Below, piece by piece: positions 4,024 through 63,693 of a DNA stretch of 64,000 nucleotides; positions within the stretch are counted from its first letter, which is position 1; every line of letters starts with the position of its first letter. Location: the NCBI GenBank assembly GCA_029856365.1, contig JAHQWW010000002.1, positions 69,098 through 133,097 on the forward strand. Reading direction: 5' to 3'. The position numbers and the translations under genes are program-made. The stretch comes from Candidatus Hodarchaeota archaeon. Lineage in GTDB: Archaea; Asgardarchaeota; Heimdallarchaeia; Hodarchaeales; Hodarchaeaceae. A model generated the notes under the pieces. It was not told the DNA's origin and did no database searches. It saw only the letters and a list, made by a program, of their open reading frames with translations.

Positions 4024-5514
4024 ATGAGTGTACCTAAACGGCATATTATAGGGGGATATATGATTTTCACACTTATCCTCCTTTCTATCATGATTGTTGA
4101 GATTAATTTCACAATATCTTTCAATTCTTCAAAAATGGAAAAGGAAATCGATATTGAAGAAAAACGTGTTTTTTGGGCATATAATTATGTCAGGGGAGAA
4201 TATTTTGAAGTCCACTCAAAGTTGCTGGCAATTGGTGACTGGTGTTATATCTATATGGATGAAGAATGTATTCTAAAACTAGGAGAAGCATCGATTATGG
4301 TAAAGGTTGAAGAGATTTGCAATGAATTCGATAATGTAATCTATCCTCGCATAATTGACCTAGCTGGACATCCCAATGGCACGATGGGAGATATCGATGG
4401 TGATCCGAAGATTTTCATCTTATTTCTGGATAATTACAATTACTATTCTGAAGTTAATGACATTGAACATAATGTTTCCAATCTTTGTGAAATGATTTAC
4501 ATTTGTTACAGGCTTTTTCATCATAATTGGTTATACCCAACCATGGCACATGAGTTTCATCATCTTATTTGGTTTAATAATGATTGGGGTGAACCACCAT
4601 TTACCTTGGAATCCCTAGCTCAATATGCAACATATCATGCGGGGTATTTAGGTCCATATAATAATCTCGTCCCCCAGGTTGCTTCTTTTTTACCTCATCC
4701 TGAAAATTCACCATTATATTGGACTGATGATCAAGATTATGGAAGTACATATCTTTTTGCTTTCTATATTGCTGAAAAATATGGGGTAGATATTCTCCGA
4801 GACCTAATAACCGAACCTGATGATGGCCCTCATGGAATTGAAACAGTCCTACACGCCGCAGGTTATGATATAACATTTAATGAGCTTTTTATGAACTGGA
4901 TTACTGCTCTTACTCTAGATGAATTGGGTTTTCAGAATAATCTGTTTGGATTTGAAGGATTCGATGCCCGAATCACTAGTTATGAAGTGGTAGACAAACT
5001 TCCACTAGCTAATAAAACCATCTCTGTCAATCATTATGCCTTTTATATTCACAAACTGGAAGCTCCACCGAATAACTTTACAGTCATCATTAATAAGATC
5101 CCACAGGATGTGATTGGAATTTCCCTTGCTATACATGATTCTTGTGGTTGGCATGTCAAGCAAAACTTGCATTATGGAGAAGCAAGTACAATAACTGAGT
5201 CATTTTCAGGTTCATTAATTGATGAGGCGTATGTAGTCACTAGTTACATCTCTAGAAGTACACCGATTGCCCCTGAAGAGAGAGGTTCAGGACCTTCCAT
5301 TAACATTGACATCACCATTATCGAAGGAGTACAAAAAAATGTTGATAGTTCATCATCTATCCAATCTACCGAGACAACAACTGGAGGAAGTAATTGCACC
5401 ACTTCAAAGATGTCTACAACAACATCTGGCAATACTATTCCATTTTTTGATATATCATTTGTTTTTCTTAGCATCCTAGTGATTTCATTAAGAAAAAGAA
5501 GAAATTATTTCTGA
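4024..5514 (+). CDS. Secreted zinc metallopeptidase (M30/M6-like) with Ser/Thr linker and C-terminal anchor
   Basis: N-terminal TM, DIDGDPKIFIL, AHEFHHLI...LES, DYG..YLF; ends IPFF-TM-RKRR. Confidence 0.8.
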   Translation: MSVPKRHIIGGYMIFTLILLSIMIVEINFTISFNSSKMEKEIDIEEKRVFWAYNYVRGEYFEVHSKLLAIGDWCYIYMDEECILKLGEASIMVKVEEICNEFDNVIYPRIIDLAGHPNGTMGDIDGDPKIFILFLDNYNYYSEVNDIEHNVSNLCEMIYICYRLFHHNWLYPTMAHEFHHLIWFNNDWGEPPFTLESLAQYATYHAGYLGPYNNLVPQVASFLPHPENSPLYWTDDQDYGSTYLFAFYIAEKYGVDILRDLITEPDDGPHGIETVLHAAGYDITFNELFMNWITALTLDELGFQNNLFGFEGFDARITSYEVVDKLPLANKTISVNHYAFYIHKLEAPPNNFTVIINKIPQDVIGISLAIHDSCGWHVKQNLHYGEASTITESFSGSLIDEAYVVTSYISRSTPIAPEERGSGPSINIDITIIEGVQKNVDSSSSIQSTETTTGGSNCTTSKMSTTTSGNTIPFFDISFVFLSILVISLRKRRNYF

Positions 5515-54399: not shown

Positions 54400-55270
54400 T
54401 GAGCACTAGCCTATTCTTCCAATAGTTATTTCATCATTTTAAAACATTTATCTGTCATCCATTATTGTTCACTTGTTTTTTCTCTACGGAGGAGATGTCG
54501 TTTAACGTTGCAGTACTTCGCATCACCTCCTCGGAAATACCCCTTGTCCGTTAAATAGCGTCCGATCCCATGATGTACGGAGGAATTCACAAAAATCGCA
54601 CAAATCTTTTGTCCCTTTAAAATTCCCAAAAATGTCAGTTTTCTCTACAATGTCCCTAATTTCTTCAATTTGTGGGGTTTGTTTGAATTCAGATAATACT
54701 TGTTCAAAATCTTCCCTTGTAAGTCCTGATCCTCTAATACACCTTAAATTCCAGGCCAGAGTTTTCAAACTTTTCTATCTACACCCTTAGAAGATGAAAA
54801 CTTCGTAAAACGATTGCGAAACCATCATGAGAAAACATACGATCCGCTAATAAGCATCTTCCATATTTATGATCAGTGGGCTGCTGGTGTTACTCGAAAG
54901 ATCCGTTCACCAGTAACCAGTCGTTATACATGGCAAGCCAAGAAAATGAGGGAAAAAATTGACTTTAATAATCTCGCACATGAAATAAAGGAGGTGTCTA
55001 CGAACATCTGGACACTTTATAAGTATATTTACAATAGTAAGGAACTACATTACTTAACAGAATCCATGAACCATGGTCATAACTCTTTAAGAAACCATTT
55101 ACTGGTAATCGCCAATTTAATAGTGCAAGACCATAAATTCTTTAGGAATTGAGGAGAAATGCACAAAAAAACGTCTAATTGCCGTTTCCAAATCGCATGA
55201 CGGTAGTAGGGCCTGAGATTTGGGTAAGAGGATTGGAATGTGAAACCCTCAGATAAGAAGGTTTATAAGA

Positions 55271-56620
55271 ATGAGGGAACCTAATAACCTTTCAGATTCA
55301 GATTTCAACATTCAAATTCCTGATGATTTTGAAGTAGCCATCCTAGCTAATGGAACTCCAGTAATTGAATTACTCTCGAATGGAAATGCTTTGAACAAAA
55401 CAGCAAACCAGGATCATTTTAGAGTCCTATTCACGTTGAGAACATATAATACAACTGTACTTCCTCGAAACTACTTACTTGACATAAACTCCTTTGGAAT
55501 GCGATACTCCACACTTATCACCCCTCAGTGGCCGGAACAAACCCAACCTCAAACCCCCTCGGGCGGGGGTGGTGCTGGTATTCAGGCTTACGAGCCATAT
55601 ATCACTAGTTTCTTTGCTTACGACCGTAATAAAGGTCAGAAAGCATGTGTTAAGACCTGGATTCACAATCCTTGCTCTGAGGAGCGAAGAGTTGATAAGT
55701 TGAAATATAAACTAGAACATCATGTTCCATACTCTCCTTATCAAGAGACTTGGGAGGATTGGACACCATATTAAAATGAATATACTTACGTTGGTCAACT
55801 CGAAACCTTGGAAGTGCATGATTATTTGAACAAAATCTTCACTACTTCAGGGAAGACATATGCACTTAATAAAGGATTATACAATGTTAATGAAGTGTAT
55901 GTCACGGGTTGGAAACCTGGCGGATCTTGGTCGGATACTGATTATCCTTCCGTCTCAGAAGGGCAATTTAAAATGAGGAATTCTACGGATAATTATGTAT
56001 TTGTGGCACATTTATATGACTCTTTGTTCCCTGCCTTTGCTGATGATTTTGGAAAAACCGTTAATGGATGGTTCGACTTCATCGAGAGCTGGGATTTCTC
56101 TTACGGAGGAACTACCGACCTAAAAACACTTTTCAACATTAACTTTCATAGTAAGACCTTTGAATGGAATCCTTCCTCTTATAAAATAAATGATCTTTTT
56201 TATGACTATTTAGCACCTGCTGGAGGAGCAGCCTTAGGGAAAAGTGGTGATTGGCAAGAGAGAACGGGAACTGATTCTAATAATCATGGATTTGACCTCC
56301 TTTTTGCTACCCTTGGTGGATTAAATGAGGATGGTACTAGCAATATAGGTATAACAGTAGGACATTCAAATATGGGTATTGCCATGGGAGGCTATTGGAT
56401 ATGTATTGGAGGTTTTCCAGTTTGGCCAGTTATGAACCTGAATATTGATCATACAACCATTCATGAGGTGCTCCATACCTATAAGGCTGAGGATCTTTCT
56501 TCTTCAGGATATATTATGACTGGAAGTGGATCATGGGACAATGTCATGCATTCGGATACATATGATGTTGTTAATCATTATCAAGATCGATATTACGGTG
56601 ATGGAAATTTTGACTTTTAA
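55271..56620 (+). pseudogene. Secreted metzincin-like metalloprotease split by an in-frame TAA (55772)
   Basis: The two ORFs are in the same frame with an open 33-nt linker; HEVLHTYKAED...IM; degraded signal region near 55159. Confidence 0.7.
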
Positions 56621-56721
56621 AATCTTAACCCTTCCCTTTTCTCGATTATTCTCGAGTTTATCGTTTCAATTGTGAACCAATAATGCCTAAATGAGGGCTA
56701 AAAGGATTGTGAAATGTAAAA

Positions 56722-58212
56722 ATGAGGAATAATAAGACTCCTGACAAGAAACCATTAATGAAGACTCCAAAAAGTCTGGCCATCATCCTGCTTCTTTTGT
56801 TTGCTTCTTTGTACTCAGGAGCTCTCCTGTTGCAGAATAAAAACTCTCTGCCCAGTTTGATTACATCTGTATCGGCTTCCCGCGATTTTGATTCCCACAC
56901 TCCCAGAGCCTTCCGCTCAGATTCAGGCCAAACCCATCTCCTCTTTCTTCATCAAACTCAGAAGTATGATTTTGGTGATCGTTACTTTTATCATTCTTAC
57001 GAACTGGAGGATCGGAGCTGGTCGGTCCCAGTTAAACTGGAGGACCTAGCTTTCTCAGACCTGTATTCTATGACTAATTTCCTGATAATTCAAAATGAAT
57101 CCCGAGAAGATGACTTTGATGTCTATTATAACAAAGAGGGTGAACTGTTCAAAACCAGTTATAATGGCCAATCAAATCAATGGATAGATTCCGAAAAGTT
57201 ATTTGGCAAGCTTGACATCCATGACTATTTGCACCTTCCACTATCGAGCGATCTTCTGAGTCTTTGTGGACATTCTCTCTTTTACTTGCATGATGAAACC
57301 ATTAACGTTGTCTGGAGTTTCAAAAGTCGCAACGCCAGTCTTTTTAAACACGAATATGAAAGACATTATCTTATCAGTGCTGTCTTCTCAAACGCAACCA
57401 TTAAGTCTCAAGTGATTCCAGGGTTAGATGCCTTCTATCACTACTATTCATCGTTAAACTTTGTGTCTAGGAATGCCTCGTTGATAATATATTCTCCCCA
57501 ATATTTTTATCGCTCAATTCTGCTGCCAAATGGTTCGTGGTCTACGTGGCAACATTCTGGTTTCGCTGCAGCTTTAATGGATCTTTACGGGGAAATACAT
57601 GGAGAATTAACTCAACATTTAATCCATAATCATTATTTAGTGAGTTCTCACAAAGATGAGGATGCGAATATCAATTGGGTATGGACTGATCTGACAGCTA
57701 CAAATCTTTCAGTACACCCCATTCATTTTCCCAAAAAATTAGATCCCAGGGACACCAGTATCCGCGCCACATTTAACCTACGAGAAAGTACCGATGGAAG
57801 TTCCTCTTTTTTGACCGCTTTTGTCACCAATAGCTCCATTGAACTTTGGACGTATCACCTTCTAAATGATACCTGGACTCTGATCAATCAGCTTGCCTAT
57901 TCCCAGACAAACACACATAATTTTTATGGAGAACCTAAGGTTTTCAATATCGATTTATTAGCTGATGGGCCCACCTGGCGGGTGTTCTGGAACCAGCAGG
58001 TTAAAGCAGGGAACTTTTTACACGAGATTTTTACCGTCTCGTATCACACTGAGACTGGGGAGTGGAGCCAGGTCACTCAAATTACCGACACCCGTGCCAT
58101 TACTGATGATTTTACTGATGGAGTTGTCCCTGGGTTCCCCCTCCTCATTCTCTGCTTAACTTTCTTGATCATTATCACTCTAAGAAGAATAAAAAAGCCT
58201 GTTATATCCTAG
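56722..58212 (+). CDS. Beta-rich surface protein with VPGF C-terminal anchor
   Basis: N-terminal TM, WS.P repeats, VPGF-TM-RRIKK. Confidence 0.8.
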   Translation: MRNNKTPDKKPLMKTPKSLAIILLLLFASLYSGALLLQNKNSLPSLITSVSASRDFDSHTPRAFRSDSGQTHLLFLHQTQKYDFGDRYFYHSYELEDRSWSVPVKLEDLAFSDLYSMTNFLIIQNESREDDFDVYYNKEGELFKTSYNGQSNQWIDSEKLFGKLDIHDYLHLPLSSDLLSLCGHSLFYLHDETINVVWSFKSRNASLFKHEYERHYLISAVFSNATIKSQVIPGLDAFYHYYSSLNFVSRNASLIIYSPQYFYRSILLPNGSWSTWQHSGFAAALMDLYGEIHGELTQHLIHNHYLVSSHKDEDANINWVWTDLTATNLSVHPIHFPKKLDPRDTSIRATFNLRESTDGSSSFLTAFVTNSSIELWTYHLLNDTWTLINQLAYSQTNTHNFYGEPKVFNIDLLADGPTWRVFWNQQVKAGNFLHEIFTVSYHTETGEWSQVTQITDTRAITDDFTDGVVPGFPLLILCLTFLIIITLRRIKKPVIS

Positions 58213-58242
58213 GACCTCGTTAGAAAAGAAAAGGAGTTAGAT

Positions 58243-58340
58243 TGTGGAGAGCAGCGCTTAGGTTGATGTCAGAAACTCCGATGGGGTGACCCTGACGAGC
58301 TACCAGAAGCTGGATTACTCTCTGGAGCGACGCCTCTACA
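58243..58340 (+). ncRNA. Candidate structured RNA (about 98 nt, three-way junction)
   Basis: GC-rich island with paired ends, two internal hairpins, G-U pairs favouring +, followed by T7. Confidence 0.4.
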
Positions 58341-58483
58341 TTTTTTTAACATGAGAGAATCGAAAAACGGATATTTTGGAATCTTTGGTAATATTAAGTC
58401 GCTTCCAAACAATACTCATGGAACTTGAAAAATCTTAAAAAGTGATAAATCATTGAAAGGAATAGGAGAGTCAATAATAGGAA

Positions 58484-58945
58484 ATGGAAACACGCCTAGC
58501 ACCTCGTCTCCATATTTTTGGTTGTGTTATTAGTTTTACATTCGTGATTCTCTCAATTGTTCTAGGGAATGTTCAATTATTGCTGTTAGGATTCATTCTA
58601 TCTGTTTTAACATGGTTAACATTTGGGTTACGGGAACTTCTAATATTTTTAGCGATTGTAAATCATCAACCAAGAGAAAGAGGAGTTTTAATCTACGTGG
58701 GATTAAGAGCGAGTGCCCTAATTGACATCGCTCTGGTCAATGCGAATATGTTGGGGGTATATAACAATATACCACCTTTTTCAATCCTCAGATATGATCC
58801 TATTTGGTATACAATTGGCTTAATATTCCCAATAATTCTACTGCTTGGAATAGCAATTATCTGGCTTTTTGCAGACCAAAAATTTTCTCTCACATTACCC
58901 ATTGGTAGAGGTTTTGTCTCTCAGTGGCCGTTTAAATCAAATTGA
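58484..58945 (+). CDS. Hypothetical membrane protein
   Basis: About 4 hydrophobic segments. Confidence 0.6.
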   Translation: METRLAPRLHIFGCVISFTFVILSIVLGNVQLLLLGFILSVLTWLTFGLRELLIFLAIVNHQPRERGVLIYVGLRASALIDIALVNANMLGVYNNIPPFSILRYDPIWYTIGLIFPIILLLGIAIIWLFADQKFSLTLPIGRGFVSQWPFKSN

Positions 58946-59011
58946 CTATATTAAGCATTAATTAACAAGCAAATGTGCTGGATCACATTGAAATGATATG
59001 AGTAGTAAATA

Positions 59012-59227
59012 TTGCCGAAGATTGAACTTACCGACCTCAACATGGGAAATATCGATGATCTGATCAATTTATGTATTCCCCGTGATCAAAAAAATAATCC
59101 TCTTTTTATAGAAGGATATAAACTAAAGAAAAAGTGGGTAGAGCAGAATATAAAGAAATATGGAAACATTGCTAAACTGGCTTTTTTCGATTCAACACCT
59201 GTTGGATTTATAGGATCACCAATCTGA
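59012..59227 (+). pseudogene. 5' fragment of a YoaP-like GNAT acetyltransferase
   Basis: NI..L..LC...EG...KKKW....PVGFI, then abrupt loss of the expected continuation. Confidence 0.6.
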
Positions 59228-59451
59228 GGGATAGATCAGGGGGAGCTATCCCAATGATGATTCTTTTATACCTACCAAAATAAAGTTTCGACTTGACGTT
59301 GGTAGTGGCGTTACGTGTGTGGTTTACGAACGCGTAAACTCCGTTGCGGCTATGGTTTCTGTATTCCATATGAAAAAGATACAGTGGTGGATCGGTGGTA
59401 CTTTGCACCGTCCGCCCTGTTGGGTGAGTGGAGTAATCCGACCCACCCACA
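59209..59451 (+). ncRNA. Candidate structured RNA with a canonical box C/D kink-turn
   Basis: CUGA 59224, 7-bp stem, AAU bulge plus AUGAUGA 59254; four further hairpins; GUAA tetraloop. Confidence 0.55.
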
Positions 59452-59545
59452 AAACAAACCAAAAATTAACTTCACTATCTATTCATAGACCTTCATGTTT
59501 TTAATAATGAAGCTCTAATTCTTCATCAAAACAATTTAAGAACAT

Positions 59546-60373
59546 TTGATTGAGCTGAAATTTATGCGGAAAATTGGTTTCTCATTTCAGGCTAGTACTA
59601 GTACATCAATTGATCTTGAAAAAGTTCTTACTACAGGTTTTACACACATTGAGCTGAAATGGGGCAATTTCACCTCCCAATCTGAACAGAAGAAGATTAT
59701 TACTTTTTTACAGACTCAAGTCTGGGGAGAAGTCACTCTCTCTCTTCATACGCCATTAAAAAACATTAATATTGGGTCTTTATCAGAAATTAAGCGTAAA
59801 CAATCAGTCACCTGTGTAACCAAGGCAATTCGTATAGCAAAAGAGTTAGAGACCACATTTGTTGTAGTACACGGGGGAAAAATCCATGCTGGAACACCGA
59901 GAGATCAAGAATCAAGGCGAAGGGCATATCAAGCGCAGTTAAAATCGCTTCAAGAAATCAATTCATTCTGCAAAGAACAAGGAATGGAACTTGCTCTAGA
60001 AAATGGGTATTCAATAAAAGACTTGGGCTTGTTATCAACTATTGATGAAATGGCTCAATTAGATGACCTTGTTGATGATTTATCTTTTATTCTCGATATT
60101 GGCCATTTTATCCTCAATAATCCTTTATCAAATATTCGGATACAACTCAAAAAGCATCCCTCCCTTCGATTTAGTGCTATTCATTTACATGATAACAACA
60201 AAACCGCTGATGATCATTTGGCGCTAGGAAAGGGAATTCTTCTCCAACAAAAGGAAGAATTGAAAGCTATCTTCAAATCATTAAATAATTGTCCAATTAT
60301 TATCGAAAATACAGGATTAAAAGTTTCTCTAATAACGAAGAATCGGCTTATTCAAAATGATCTTCTAAACTAG
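59546..60373 (+). CDS. Sugar phosphate isomerase/epimerase (AP endonuclease 2 TIM barrel)
   Basis: SLHTP..NINIGS, VVHGG, LALEN, LDIGH, IHLHDN...DDHL. Confidence 0.9.
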   Translation: MIELKFMRKIGFSFQASTSTSIDLEKVLTTGFTHIELKWGNFTSQSEQKKIITFLQTQVWGEVTLSLHTPLKNINIGSLSEIKRKQSVTCVTKAIRIAKELETTFVVVHGGKIHAGTPRDQESRRRAYQAQLKSLQEINSFCKEQGMELALENGYSIKDLGLLSTIDEMAQLDDLVDDLSFILDIGHFILNNPLSNIRIQLKKHPSLRFSAIHLHDNNKTADDHLALGKGILLQQKEELKAIFKSLNNCPIIIENTGLKVSLITKNRLIQNDLLN

Positions 60374-60996
60374 CTTTGTTCACTATTTAGATTGTTTTTC
60401 GCTTGGATTATTCGAAGGAATACAGCCCCGTGTGTTTGTATGGTAAGGAGAAACAGGCAAAGAGGAATTGTCCAAAGAGTAAGAACGGAGCATATCCCAG
60501 CGAGAAAAATAAGTAGTAATCGCGAGTCTCGGCCTTGAATAGTACGGGGGAAATGAAGATCGTTTTTAGTCTCCGCTTTGGCTGCAGTATAACTGACAAG
60601 AAAAGATCCTGACAGAGAGGTTGTAGCCAAGAGGAGAACCCACAGAGGTGAAAGTAAAAACAATGAGAAGAAAGCCATTGAGGTTATTACGGCAAAATCA
60701 ACATAACGATCAAGAACCGAGTCAAAAAATCCTCCAAAAAAGGTTTCCTTTCCTGTAGCACGAGCTATTTCCCCATCAGATCCATCAATGATGCTTGAGG
60801 TCTGGATGAGAATTCCTCCTATAACTGGTTGATATCCTCCAAAGAAAATCGCTGCCATAACCCCAAGTATTACTGAAATAATTGAAATCAGATTGGGGTG
60901 ACAATTCGGCCAGATACGAAGGATAGCCACGGATAAAGGGTGGGAAAAGCGTCTATTTATATACTGAGAGACTAATCCATCATTCTTCGCTGGCAC
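60370..60996 (-). CDS. CDP-alcohol phosphatidyltransferase, DIPP synthase-like
   Basis: DGLVSQYINRRFS, PNLIS, DGSDGEIARA...GGFFDSVLDRYVD. Confidence 0.88.
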   Translation of the reverse strand: MPAKNDGLVSQYINRRFSHPLSVAILRIWPNCHPNLISIISVILGVMAAIFFGGYQPVIGGILIQTSSIIDGSDGEIARATGKETFFGGFFDSVLDRYVDFAVITSMAFFSLFLLSPLWVLLLATTSLSGSFLVSYTAAKAETKNDLHFPRTIQGRDSRLLLIFLAGICSVLTLWTIPLCLFLLTIQTHGAVFLRIIQAKNNLNSEQS

Positions 60997-61845
60997 TTAA
61001 TCATCTTCCACTTGGTAGCTCTTAAGCGCCTCTAAGTAAGTAGTGGAAGTATTAGGAGGACTGATTTGAGAGACTGTCACTAGTCTATGGTCTGATAAAG
61101 CTGGTGTCACGTAGTCTAGTAGTCGTTCCTCTGCGTGCTGTAAAACTGAAAATGTGTCAATGTCTGCCCACCTACACCCTGAAACATCGATGCCTTTGAC
61201 ACGATCCCTACATCGAATCATTTCAGTGACTCCATCCGTGAGAGTAAGATATTTCTTAGAAAGCTGATTTAACCGTTGAAAAATTAAAGGAGAAACATAA
61301 AATAATCCTGTATCAAATGCAGTCCAACTTAAGAGATTTTTACCAATTTGGGTGATCTGATTTTTCTGATCTAATAAGACTTTAGTTGCATCATCTACTT
61401 GAATGGTTGGATCTGGGGTCGTGTCAATACATAATGAGAGATCAACTTCCTTTTCAATCCCCATTTTAAGAGTTTGATAAATTCTATCTTCAAAGAGATG
61501 ATCACACATGGTTAAGAAAAAGGGTTCTGTAATAGAAGATTCCAGTGCGAGAATGGAGTGTCCATTGCCCTGCTTATAGTGTGGCGCTTCTAGACAAACC
61601 AGTTCACATGAGAACGAGTAGTTTAATTGGTTAATATAATCAGCAAGAATGTGTTTTTTATAGCCAATCACAACAAAGATTTTATCTAATTCTGGGAAGT
61701 TGTCCATGATATTATATATTACATAATCAATGAGGGGTCGTCCACCGAATTCTATCAGAGGTTTAGGGATAGATGAAGACATATTATTGAATCGAGAGCC
61801 CAATCCAGCGGCTAAGTTAACGAAGGTACCATTAAAAATGATCAC
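60997..61845 (-). CDS. Nucleotidyltransferase, inositol-1-phosphate cytidylyltransferase (IPCT)-like
   Basis: LAAGLGSRF, PKPL, GNGHS, MCDH, DATKV, IGK....FDTG, WADIDT. Confidence 0.85.
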   Translation of the reverse strand: MIIFNGTFVNLAAGLGSRFNNMSSSIPKPLIEFGGRPLIDYVIYNIMDNFPELDKIFVVIGYKKHILADYINQLNYSFSCELVCLEAPHYKQGNGHSILALESSITEPFFLTMCDHLFEDRIYQTLKMGIEKEVDLSLCIDTTPDPTIQVDDATKVLLDQKNQITQIGKNLLSWTAFDTGLFYVSPLIFQRLNQLSKKYLTLTDGVTEMIRCRDRVKGIDVSGCRWADIDTFSVLQHAEERLLDYVTPALSDHRLVTVSQISPPNTSTTYLEALKSYQVEDD

Positions 61846-62108
61846 CTCTTTCGTTTAAACTCCCTATCATCACTTTTTCTTAAGACAATTAATAATTTAA
61901 ATAGCTTATGCTAAATAAATTACTAATGTTAATTTTCAATCACCCCTTTTATAATTCTTTTATATGATTGGGAATGTTTCACGATTCTGTATCATTAAAA
62001 GGCACATATAAATTTTTCGATTAAAAATAATCTCCTAAATCCAAATTTCCTGTCAATTCCATCCTCAGATTGCAATAATTTTTTCTATTTTAATGAATAA
62101 AATAATCT

Positions 62109-62408
62109 TTGTTAGTGAATAAAATAGGAGATGAGATGAATATCGAATCAAAAACTTTTCCACAAATGAAATTTGTTTCATATAGATTGGCCTTTACTGT
62201 CATTAATGCGCTTATTTACGCATCTATCTACGCAATCATTGGTTTTTATAATTGGTTGCTTATACCTGTTTATATTTCAAACATAGCAATTGCTATTTTA
62301 GTTGCCATTTTAATAGAACATTCTTTTCAATTGTTAGGCATTGGATTCAAGAACATTATATTGAATCAAGAAATTTCAGGACCTATTATAATACAAGAAG
62401 AGATTTAA
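62109..62408 (+). CDS. Small hypothetical membrane protein (likely start ATG 62137)
   Basis: Two hydrophobic segments, GGAG SD. Confidence 0.4.
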   Translation: MLVNKIGDEMNIESKTFPQMKFVSYRLAFTVINALIYASIYAIIGFYNWLLIPVYISNIAIAILVAILIEHSFQLLGIGFKNIILNQEISGPIIIQEEI

Positions 62409-62826
62409 GGAGATGATTTACTAGATTAGTTCTATAACAGTTTGAATCCTACGATTCATGAGTCGCGATAGTTTTTACCGTGATAAGTAGTCAATGAGTT
62501 GTTCACTTTCAGATTATTGAAAATGTCCTTCTAGAACAATATGGGTAATTTTTCCTCTATTAACAAGATTGGGGTTAAATAGCTCAAAACTAGCACCTAA
62601 AAGCGTCAAATCACAAAATAAGAAAATAAAAAAAAATGAGCGACATTTTCAGAGAAGACATCTAGTGATAGTTTGACCTGTTCATTTTACTATTAATACT
62701 AGTCAAAACGATATAAGAACCGAGATTGAAGGAAGTTGTTTAATCTTAGTATAACAATCTTCGGGGTATAAAAATAAAATATAAAGATTTAGAGAAATTT
62801 TATTTGGCAAATGTTTTGTTACTTTT

Positions 62827-63230
62827 TTGCCTGCAATCATAAGCCTTTTTATTAGTCTACCTATTTTTGCATTTCTAGTTGATATACTTACGATAGATAA
62901 ATATGGATCTTTTATCTTACCCAATGAGAAATTTTGGATTATATTTCTTCTTGATATTCCTCTAGCTGTACTTTTAAGTGTTGAAGTGGTTGTTTTAATC
63001 TCTATAAAGCAAATGATGTTCGTACAGCAAACCAATATGGAACATTAGTTGTTTTACCTTATGGAGGTTTATATATATTGATAGAACTAGGAAAATTAAA
63101 ACTTACACAAGACACATTATTGATAATTTCAGCAGTTATTTCTGTTGTTATACTTGTTTTTCTATTTTTAATCAAAATATCTTTTCACAGAGAAGAAATC
63201 CTTTCAAAATGGAGGACTTATGATCTTTAA
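62827..63230 (+). other. Small hydrophobic ORFs or fragments (62827-63048 and 63078-63230)
   Basis: Hydrophobic short ORFs; GGAGG upstream of 63078. Confidence 0.3.
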
Positions 63231-63693
63231 AGTTGTCTAAAAAGATCATATTTAATATATGGAGAATTTAATCTATAGATTATTTGATGAGTACAAGCAA
63301 GATGAGCTATCAAAAAACTTAACTAAACTTGATAAGAGTTTAATGAGCAGTGCTCGCAGAATCTTTTTCTCTGGTTGTTTCATAGTTATTGGATTATTCA
63401 TATCTTATATCAGAGTGTTAAACAATTAGGCCTTTAATTAAGAATAAGGATTTATTTAGAGTATTGGTTTTCTTGCTTCTTTAATTAAAAGCTAATTACT
63501 GAGATGTCAGTTAATTTTTGTAAAGTGAAAAAATTGAGTCAAAATGACAACATAAAATGCCATCGATCGTTGGAAAGAAAGAAATTTCCTAGGAATTTTC
63601 CAATTCCATCTCTCTATTCGTTGGAATGAATGATTTTTCATATGCGATAGTGAAAAAATTTTTAAATCTCTGGAAAGTTCTCCCCAAATATCT

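What the first reader, a model, noticed from the sequence alone, without database searches (positions are those of the whole stretch)
59209..59451. Unassigned roughly 240-nt structured RNA with a canonical C/D kink-turn
Seen: AAUCUGA-GGGAUAG...CUAUCCC-AAU-GAUGAUU (59221-59262). This gives a 7-bp C-stem, an AAU bulge, tandem G.A pairs, U.U, G-C and three A-U pairs. It is followed by stems ctaccaa/ttggtag, gtttacg/cgtaaac, acag-ggtgga-cggtg/caccg-tccgcc-ctgt and gggtg...gga GTAA tcc...caccc (GNRA loop). It is GC-rich in AT-rich DNA, and G-U pairs favour +. Known: such K-turns bind L7Ae, while typical archaeal C/D guides are only about 50-70 nt. I see no RNase P, SRP, tRNA or 5S signatures. It begins where a GNAT gene is cut off. 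Inference: a novel L7Ae-bound RNA or a mobile-element-derived RNA. The last two hairpins loosely recall group II intron DV/DVI but lack the catalytic triad.
Basis: partly seen in the sequence, partly recalled or inferred. Interest (0 to 1): 0.8.

Follow-up and report, generated by a model that had tools for sequence, protein, structure and literature searches.

The report
Orphan kink-turn RNA fragment at breakpoint
This is a real, tightly folding stretch of non-coding DNA with a textbook binding site for the archaeal RNA-binding protein L7Ae, but it sits at a rearrangement scar in one Asgard species, was not found in any relative searched, and looks more like a displaced piece of an unknown RNA gene than a conserved new RNA.

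Summary
The stems and the C/D-type kink-turn are as described and far beyond chance (fold z -4.5; the strict K-turn pattern occurs twice in the genome, never in 10 shuffled genomes). No Rfam match. The '240-nt RNA' is not shown to be one unit. Its 5' end is a breakpoint: a 263-aa gene, intact in two relatives, is cut at 59212. The 60-bp K-turn block (59223-59282) has a near-identical second copy on contig C127 with different flanks, also starting at a breakpoint. The locus lies in a shuffled gene-cassette array behind RNase P RNA 3' fragments. No homologue was found in 398 Asgard genomes, GTDB, IMG/VR, phages or plasmids, so covariation cannot be tested; expression could not be checked. It fails C/D-guide, canonical H/ACA, RNase P, SRP, tRNA and group II tests. 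Best reading (0.45): a truncated, cassette-borne relic of an unidentified L7Ae-binding archaeal RNA. First readers of this scan flagged the C127 copy separately, and rnpB-tail arrays were reported in other Asgard genomes.

The parts
58245..58334 (+). 3' ~90 nt of the RNase P RNA gene (spare 'tail' copy marking a cassette junction)
   Evidence: 94% identical to the 3' end of complete rnpB of G007 and to that of other relatives
58987..59212 (+). 5' part of an acetyltransferase-like (GNAT) gene with its upstream bases, cut after about codon 67; the rest is absent from the assembly
   Evidence: 89% DNA identity to the intact 263-aa gene of G017 ends at 59212; tblastn finds no other part. The GNAT label rests on a motif seen by eye in the intact homologues; Pfam gave nothing on the fragment
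59213..59540 (.). 328-bp stretch with no counterpart in relatives, between the cut gene and the next cassette
   Evidence: left homology ends 59212, right homology (88% to G007:C9) begins 59541
59221..59262 (+). canonical kink-turn, box D - 7-bp C-stem with 11-nt loop - box C (the D'/C' or H/ACA orientation)
59223..59282 (+). 60-bp block duplicated at G000:C127:5166-5226 (one-base indel in the T run, one substitution near the 3' end)
   Evidence: blastn 96.7% over 61 columns, E 5e-21
59272..59305 (+). hairpin with 4x4 internal loop and UUCG loop; its 5' arm is the end of the duplicated block
   Evidence: pair probability 0.97
59307..59350 (+). interrupted hairpin with 7-8 bp apical stem
   Evidence: pair probability 0.65-0.73; this middle part is only z -1.5
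59381..59451 (+). two abutting GC-rich hairpins, the second with a GNRA loop; the most stable domain
   Evidence: z -4.6, 0 of 200 shuffles
59546..60373 (+). AP-endonuclease-2 / xylose-isomerase-like TIM-barrel gene, start of the next cassette
   Evidence: PF01261 E 8e-26; 86% identical to G007, where other DNA lies upstream

Best explanation
The stretch is a displaced, 5'-truncated piece of a structured archaeal RNA gene of unknown family that arrived with, or was shuffled among, accessory gene cassettes. Shown: it fills the gap between two cassette pieces in the variable array behind the RNase P locus, starts at the base where a gene was cut, and shares a 60-bp K-turn block with a second structured segment that also starts at a breakpoint. 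Inferred: a deletion or recombination fused the gene stump to the RNA piece; the K-turn block was copied recently; if the region is read through from the upstream genes, L7Ae binds the K-turn (canonical consensus, L7Ae gene present), but no methylation or pseudouridylation guide is assembled because the second box pair, the lower stem and a target are missing. It would then work as an L7Ae docking site on a read-through transcript, not as a guide or ribozyme.
For: Breakpoints at 59212 and 59541. In G017 the order is tail, gene X, about 1.6 kb, tail, intact GNAT, tail; the window has tail, X, GNAT stump, so DNA was lost here. G000 holds four rnpB 3' fragments and several 23S-end copies. At C127, homology to G007/G014 ends near 5051, the structured segment starts at about 5055, and those relatives have a tRNA 3' half on the other strand at that spot. 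No homologue by blastn in 398 Asgard genomes, by K-turn model in 21 genus and 149 phylum genomes (the two weak hits lack the K-turn), by 3'-part model in 82 class genomes, or by patterns in GTDB, IMG/VR, phages and plasmids.
Against: The donor RNA was not found, so 'relic' is inferred from position only. The fold is as strong as that of working RNAs, the K-turn is undamaged, and six of the ten bases between the breakpoint and the shared block region do not contradict the fold (two of them extend the K-turn stem), which fits a functioning or very recent RNA. No sequence variation between assemblies was seen, so decay cannot be measured. Relatives are incomplete MAGs in which repeats and stable-RNA genes are often unassembled.
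Confidence: 0.45

Rival explanations
1. A working, species-restricted stand-alone RNA of about 240 nt, bound by L7Ae at its 5' end; C127 is a second family member with the domains in another order.
For: Very stable fold and intact K-turn; window 59337-59460 resembles the C127 segment that precedes its K-turn at p 0.006-0.05 in four scoring schemes.
Against: 5' end equals a gene breakpoint; no promoter or terminator seen (by eye; the bacterial-type scan, does not cover archaeal promoters); no homologues; the similarity to C127 is marginal and was tested after being noticed; the 3'-part model does not find C127.
Confidence: 0.2
2. A stray copy of part of this organism's own rRNA operon leader, spacer or intron, which is missing from the assembly; pre-rRNA spacers with C/D-like L7Ae sites are known in archaea (Tang et al. 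2002, from memory; paper not held).
For: G000 lacks 16S, 5S, most of 23S and a whole rnpB, yet holds stray 23S-end copies; the A/C-rich run after 59449 resembles spacer composition; the K-turn loop is complementary over 9 nt to the conserved 16S trailer of four relatives.
Against: rRNA leaders and trailers of genus relatives share conserved motifs that are absent here, have no D-stem-C K-turn, and give no blast or model hit; no bulge-helix-bulge was found at the ends.
Confidence: 0.12
3. A degenerate H/ACA-like guide hairpin (K-turn on top, pocket below, ANA box), followed by unrelated hairpins.
For: K-turn orientation fits; an AAA lies 14 nt (15 at C127) after the stem below the G.A pairs, and the duplicated block ends there; truncated-lower-stem motifs exist in Pyrobaculum (PMC4652768).
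Against: GA stem of 7 layers, not 10; lower stem 4 bp at most, not 7-9 (PMC4652768); ANA is easy to find in this A-rich run; no Watson-Crick-rich rRNA target.
Confidence: 0.1
4. The K-turn block is an L7Ae-repressed translation start: a G-rich Shine-Dalgarno-like run in the loop (59239-45), 8 nt before the AUG inside box C, left from a lost gene.
For: L7Ae represses mRNAs through leader K-turns that mask the SD (PMC5539422); the spacing fits.
Against: The AUG opens only 9 codons here and 19 at C127; the long frame through the hairpins has no credible homologue (repeat-inflated hits); it does not explain the 3' hairpins.
Confidence: 0.08
5. End of a MITE, IS element or group II intron remnant.
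For: Interrupts a gene; MITE-like elements with C/D boxes exist in Pyrobaculum calidifontis (PMC6009581).
Against: Two partial copies only, no terminal inverted repeats or target duplication, far side of the cut gene missing; no likeness to the IS110 or TnpB ends of this genome; no reverse transcriptase found; no Rfam intron hit.
Confidence: 0.05

Closest known systems
Archaeal box C/D sRNAs, including orphan, composite and MITE-like ones (Lui et al. 2018, PMC6009581)
   Same: Perfect CUGA and RUGAUGA boxes forming a K-turn; modular duplication of box-bearing pieces in unstable regions
   Different: Only one box pair, D before C; no second pair at guide distance; no target; about 190 nt of extra hairpins
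[quoted passage not shown]
   Same: Hairpin with apical K-turn in this orientation; ANA 14-15 nt downstream
   Different: GA stem 7 instead of 10 layers, almost no lower stem, no target, other hairpins lack K-turns
L7Ae-bound mRNA leaders and unassigned sRNAs of Sulfolobus (PMC5539422)
   Same: Lone K-turn outside guide RNAs; SD-like run and AUG inside the motif
   Different: No real reading frame follows; binding and expression untested here
Tandem genomic-island scars at tRNA/tmRNA 3' ends
   Same: Partial duplicate of an RNA gene at a cassette junction, inside such an array
   Different: The parent RNA gene is unknown, and no full copy was found

Membership tests
Kink-turn (C/D type) | C-stem, 3-nt bulge, tandem G.A/A.G, NC stem | tested here: met
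Kink-turn (C/D type) | Binds L7Ae and kinks | not testable with these tools
   two L7Ae-family genes present; binding needs a gel shift
Box C/D guide sRNA | Two box pairs (C, D', C', D) about 12 nt apart | tested here: not met
   no C box upstream and no D box at guide distance downstream, in either copy
Box C/D guide sRNA | Guide of 8-9+ bp to rRNA/tRNA covering D+5 | tested here: not met
   window best 7 bp, 79 of 100 shuffles equal; C127 9 bp to 23S, 10 of 100 shuffles equal; own rRNA mostly missing, relatives used
H/ACA guide | ANA box 14-15 nt from the GA stem | tested here: met
   but in an A-rich run
H/ACA guide | GA stem of about 10 layers and lower stem of 7-9 bp | tested here: not met
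   7 layers; 4 bp at most (sequence; rule from PMC4652768)
H/ACA guide | Bipartite target around a U | tested here: inconclusive
   only G-U-rich 9-12 bp matches, no shuffle control
RNase P RNA | Match to RF00373 / similarity to genus rnpB | tested here: not met
SRP RNA, 5S rRNA, tRNA | Family model or ARAGORN match | tested here: not met
   SRP-like match lies on C9
Group II intron | DV with AGC/CGC triad followed by DVI with bulged A; Rfam match | tested here: not met
   triad absent, order reversed on +, no Rfam hit
MITE / IS element | Terminal inverted repeats, target duplication, several full copies | tested here: not met
Conserved structured ncRNA (any new class) | Homologues with covariation | tested here: not met
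   only an almost identical partial paralogue
Conserved structured ncRNA (any new class) | Discrete transcript | not testable with these tools

The most novel reading that the evidence does not exclude
The window and C127 segments are two members of an undescribed class of mobile, L7Ae-bound structured RNAs of about 200-240 nt, with the K-turn module and a second domain in permuted order, that land at cassette junctions in Hodarchaeales.
Probability: 0.12. Interest if true: 0.75.

Novelty: new variant of a known kind. Interest (0 to 1): 0.36.

Why it matters
[quoted passage not shown] That case needs conservation, and none was found. As it stands the finding mainly shows that K-turn modules are copied and fused to other structured DNA at cassette junctions, a possible raw material for new guide RNAs, and it leaves one unassigned RNA fold to look for in closed genomes.

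Tried and rejected
Rfam, permissive: only wcaG at E 0.04-0.3, 25 of 42 bits, taken as chance. 16S 3'-end origin of the first eight bases: relatives continue differently. rRNA leader or trailer homology: none. Split-gene idea (C127 front + window back = one 346-nt RNA): best cross helix reached by 33 of 200 shuffles, no extra folding gain, 28 of 60; rejected. Protein coding: 89-aa frame hit only repeat proteins at 30 bits per stretch. tRNA or intron-containing tRNA: none at usable thresholds. Hammerhead: core not met by eye. Pattern hits in IMG/VR and GTDB were unrelated hairpins. Phylum model hits G355 and G398 lack the K-turn. Misassembly: rejected. The metagenome scan found only the C127 locus and leaves out near-identical records, so it is weak evidence. 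Tang et al. 2002 could not be read.

Full report
Observation. Every stem and the kink-turn are present at the stated coordinates. The region folds at z -4.5 (+) and -4.7 (-), more stably than 600 GC-matched windows of the genome, and ranks third among GC-rich non-coding windows. A strict descriptor (CUGA, seven Watson-Crick pairs, 3-nt bulge, RUGAUGA) has two hits in 4.2 Mb and none in ten shuffled genomes. The stability is concentrated in 59381-59451. Rfam gives nothing above noise. Four independent assemblies carry the same bases.

Host. Neighbouring proteins have relatives named from Hodarchaeales and Promethearchaeota, so this is an Asgard archaeon. It encodes L7Ae-family proteins and Nop5. 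The assembly (84% complete) lacks 16S, 5S, most of 23S and a complete RNase P RNA gene.

Boundaries. The upstream gene is 263 aa in G017 and G007; identity stops at 59212 and the remainder is not in the assembly. Homology resumes at 59541 with a three-gene block that lies elsewhere in G007, behind other DNA. The structured stretch therefore begins at a breakpoint, not at a shown transcription start.

Context. 58245-58334 is the 3' end of the RNase P RNA gene; G000 has four such fragments and G007 and G017 have several, separating gene cassettes in different orders. Window 54782-55287 is the DNA that precedes rnpB in relatives. The finding thus lies inside a shuffled cassette array, and comparison with G017 shows DNA was lost both before and within the cut gene. 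I noted this pattern myself; earlier notes of this scan describe it in other Asgard genomes.

Second copy. 59223-59282 recurs at C127:5166-5226 with one indel and one substitution. There it is preceded by about 110 nt of different GC-rich hairpins, which start where homology to G007 and G014 ends; those relatives carry a tRNA 3' half at that spot. The C127 segment as a whole folds no better than shuffles (z -1). Its front part resembles window 59337-59460 weakly (p 0.006-0.05). Joining the C127 front to the window back gives no extra folding, so they are not shown to be halves of one gene.

Homologues. None were found by blastn in 60 relatives and 398 phylum genomes, by covariance models of the K-turn block or of the 3' part, or by patterns and blast in GTDB, IMG/VR, phages and plasmids. 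The models were built from one or two near-identical sequences and most genomes are incomplete, so distant relatives could be missed. RNase P tails at about 90% identity were found easily in the same genomes, which argues against a conserved housekeeping RNA of the genus.

Function. The K-turn meets the consensus, so L7Ae binding is likely if the DNA is transcribed (inference from PMC5539422). A C/D guide needs a second box pair and a target; neither is present. H/ACA geometry is met only for the ANA distance (PMC4652768). An SD-like run and an AUG lie within the motif, but no real gene follows. Group II, MITE and IS readings fail their defining features. I therefore read it as a truncated, cassette-borne piece of an unidentified archaeal RNA that at most docks L7Ae on a read-through transcript (0.45), ahead of a working species-restricted RNA (0.2), an rRNA-spacer copy (0.12), an H/ACA-like hairpin (0.1), a regulated translation start (0.08) and an element end (0.05).

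Verdict. Interest 0.36. The most novel reading, a mobile K-turn RNA class, stays open at about 0.12.

Noticed in passing
window 55290-63290; G000:C82:3344-7084: Variable gene array at the RNase P locus: one rnpB 3' fragment in the window and three on C82, no complete gene in the assembly; cassette order differs in G007 and G017.
   Followed up: partly
L079; G000 C184, C41, C49: A 23S 3' piece (model 2721-2973) and several shorter copies of the 23S end and trailer occur apart from a full gene; the same 3' piece stands alone in several genus genomes, some twice. G004 has a contiguous 23S, so these are probably duplicates.
   Followed up: partly
L069-L071, L078, L084, 100-400 nt upstream of 16S or 23S: A conserved multi-hairpin element in rRNA leaders of the genus, shared by 16S and 23S leaders, partly complementary to the trailers, with no Rfam match.
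   Followed up: no
L071 (G007 16S), about position 733: About 750-nt intron with a bulge-helix-bulge and a 230-aa frame with LAGLIDADG-like motifs, seen by eye; G004 23S has a short hairpin insert.
   Followed up: no
L078, L084: The 23S genes of G016 and G001 both break off at contig ends at model position 2078, suggesting a repeat or intron there.
   Followed up: no
window 59236-59244: The K-turn loop is complementary over 9 nt to the processing-stem strand behind 16S in four relatives; chance not excluded.
   Followed up: partly
L031:5156-5164: Nine bases before box D of the C127 copy pair with 23S near position 556 of G007 and G002, covering D+5; 10 of 100 shuffled guides do as well.
   Followed up: yes
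L031:4914-5054; L120, L121: A 46-aa frame conserved in G007 and G014 abuts a tRNA 3' half there and the structured segment in G000.
   Followed up: partly
window 59546-61845: TIM-barrel gene facing a CDP-alcohol phosphatidyltransferase and a nucleotidyltransferase, a pair typical of di-inositol-phosphate-type solute synthesis (own knowledge); found in only one of 30 relatives at the cut-off used.
   Followed up: no
G000 C35, C96, C124, C26, C36, C48: One IS110-family transposase and six TnpB-like pieces; none resembles the finding.
   Followed up: partly
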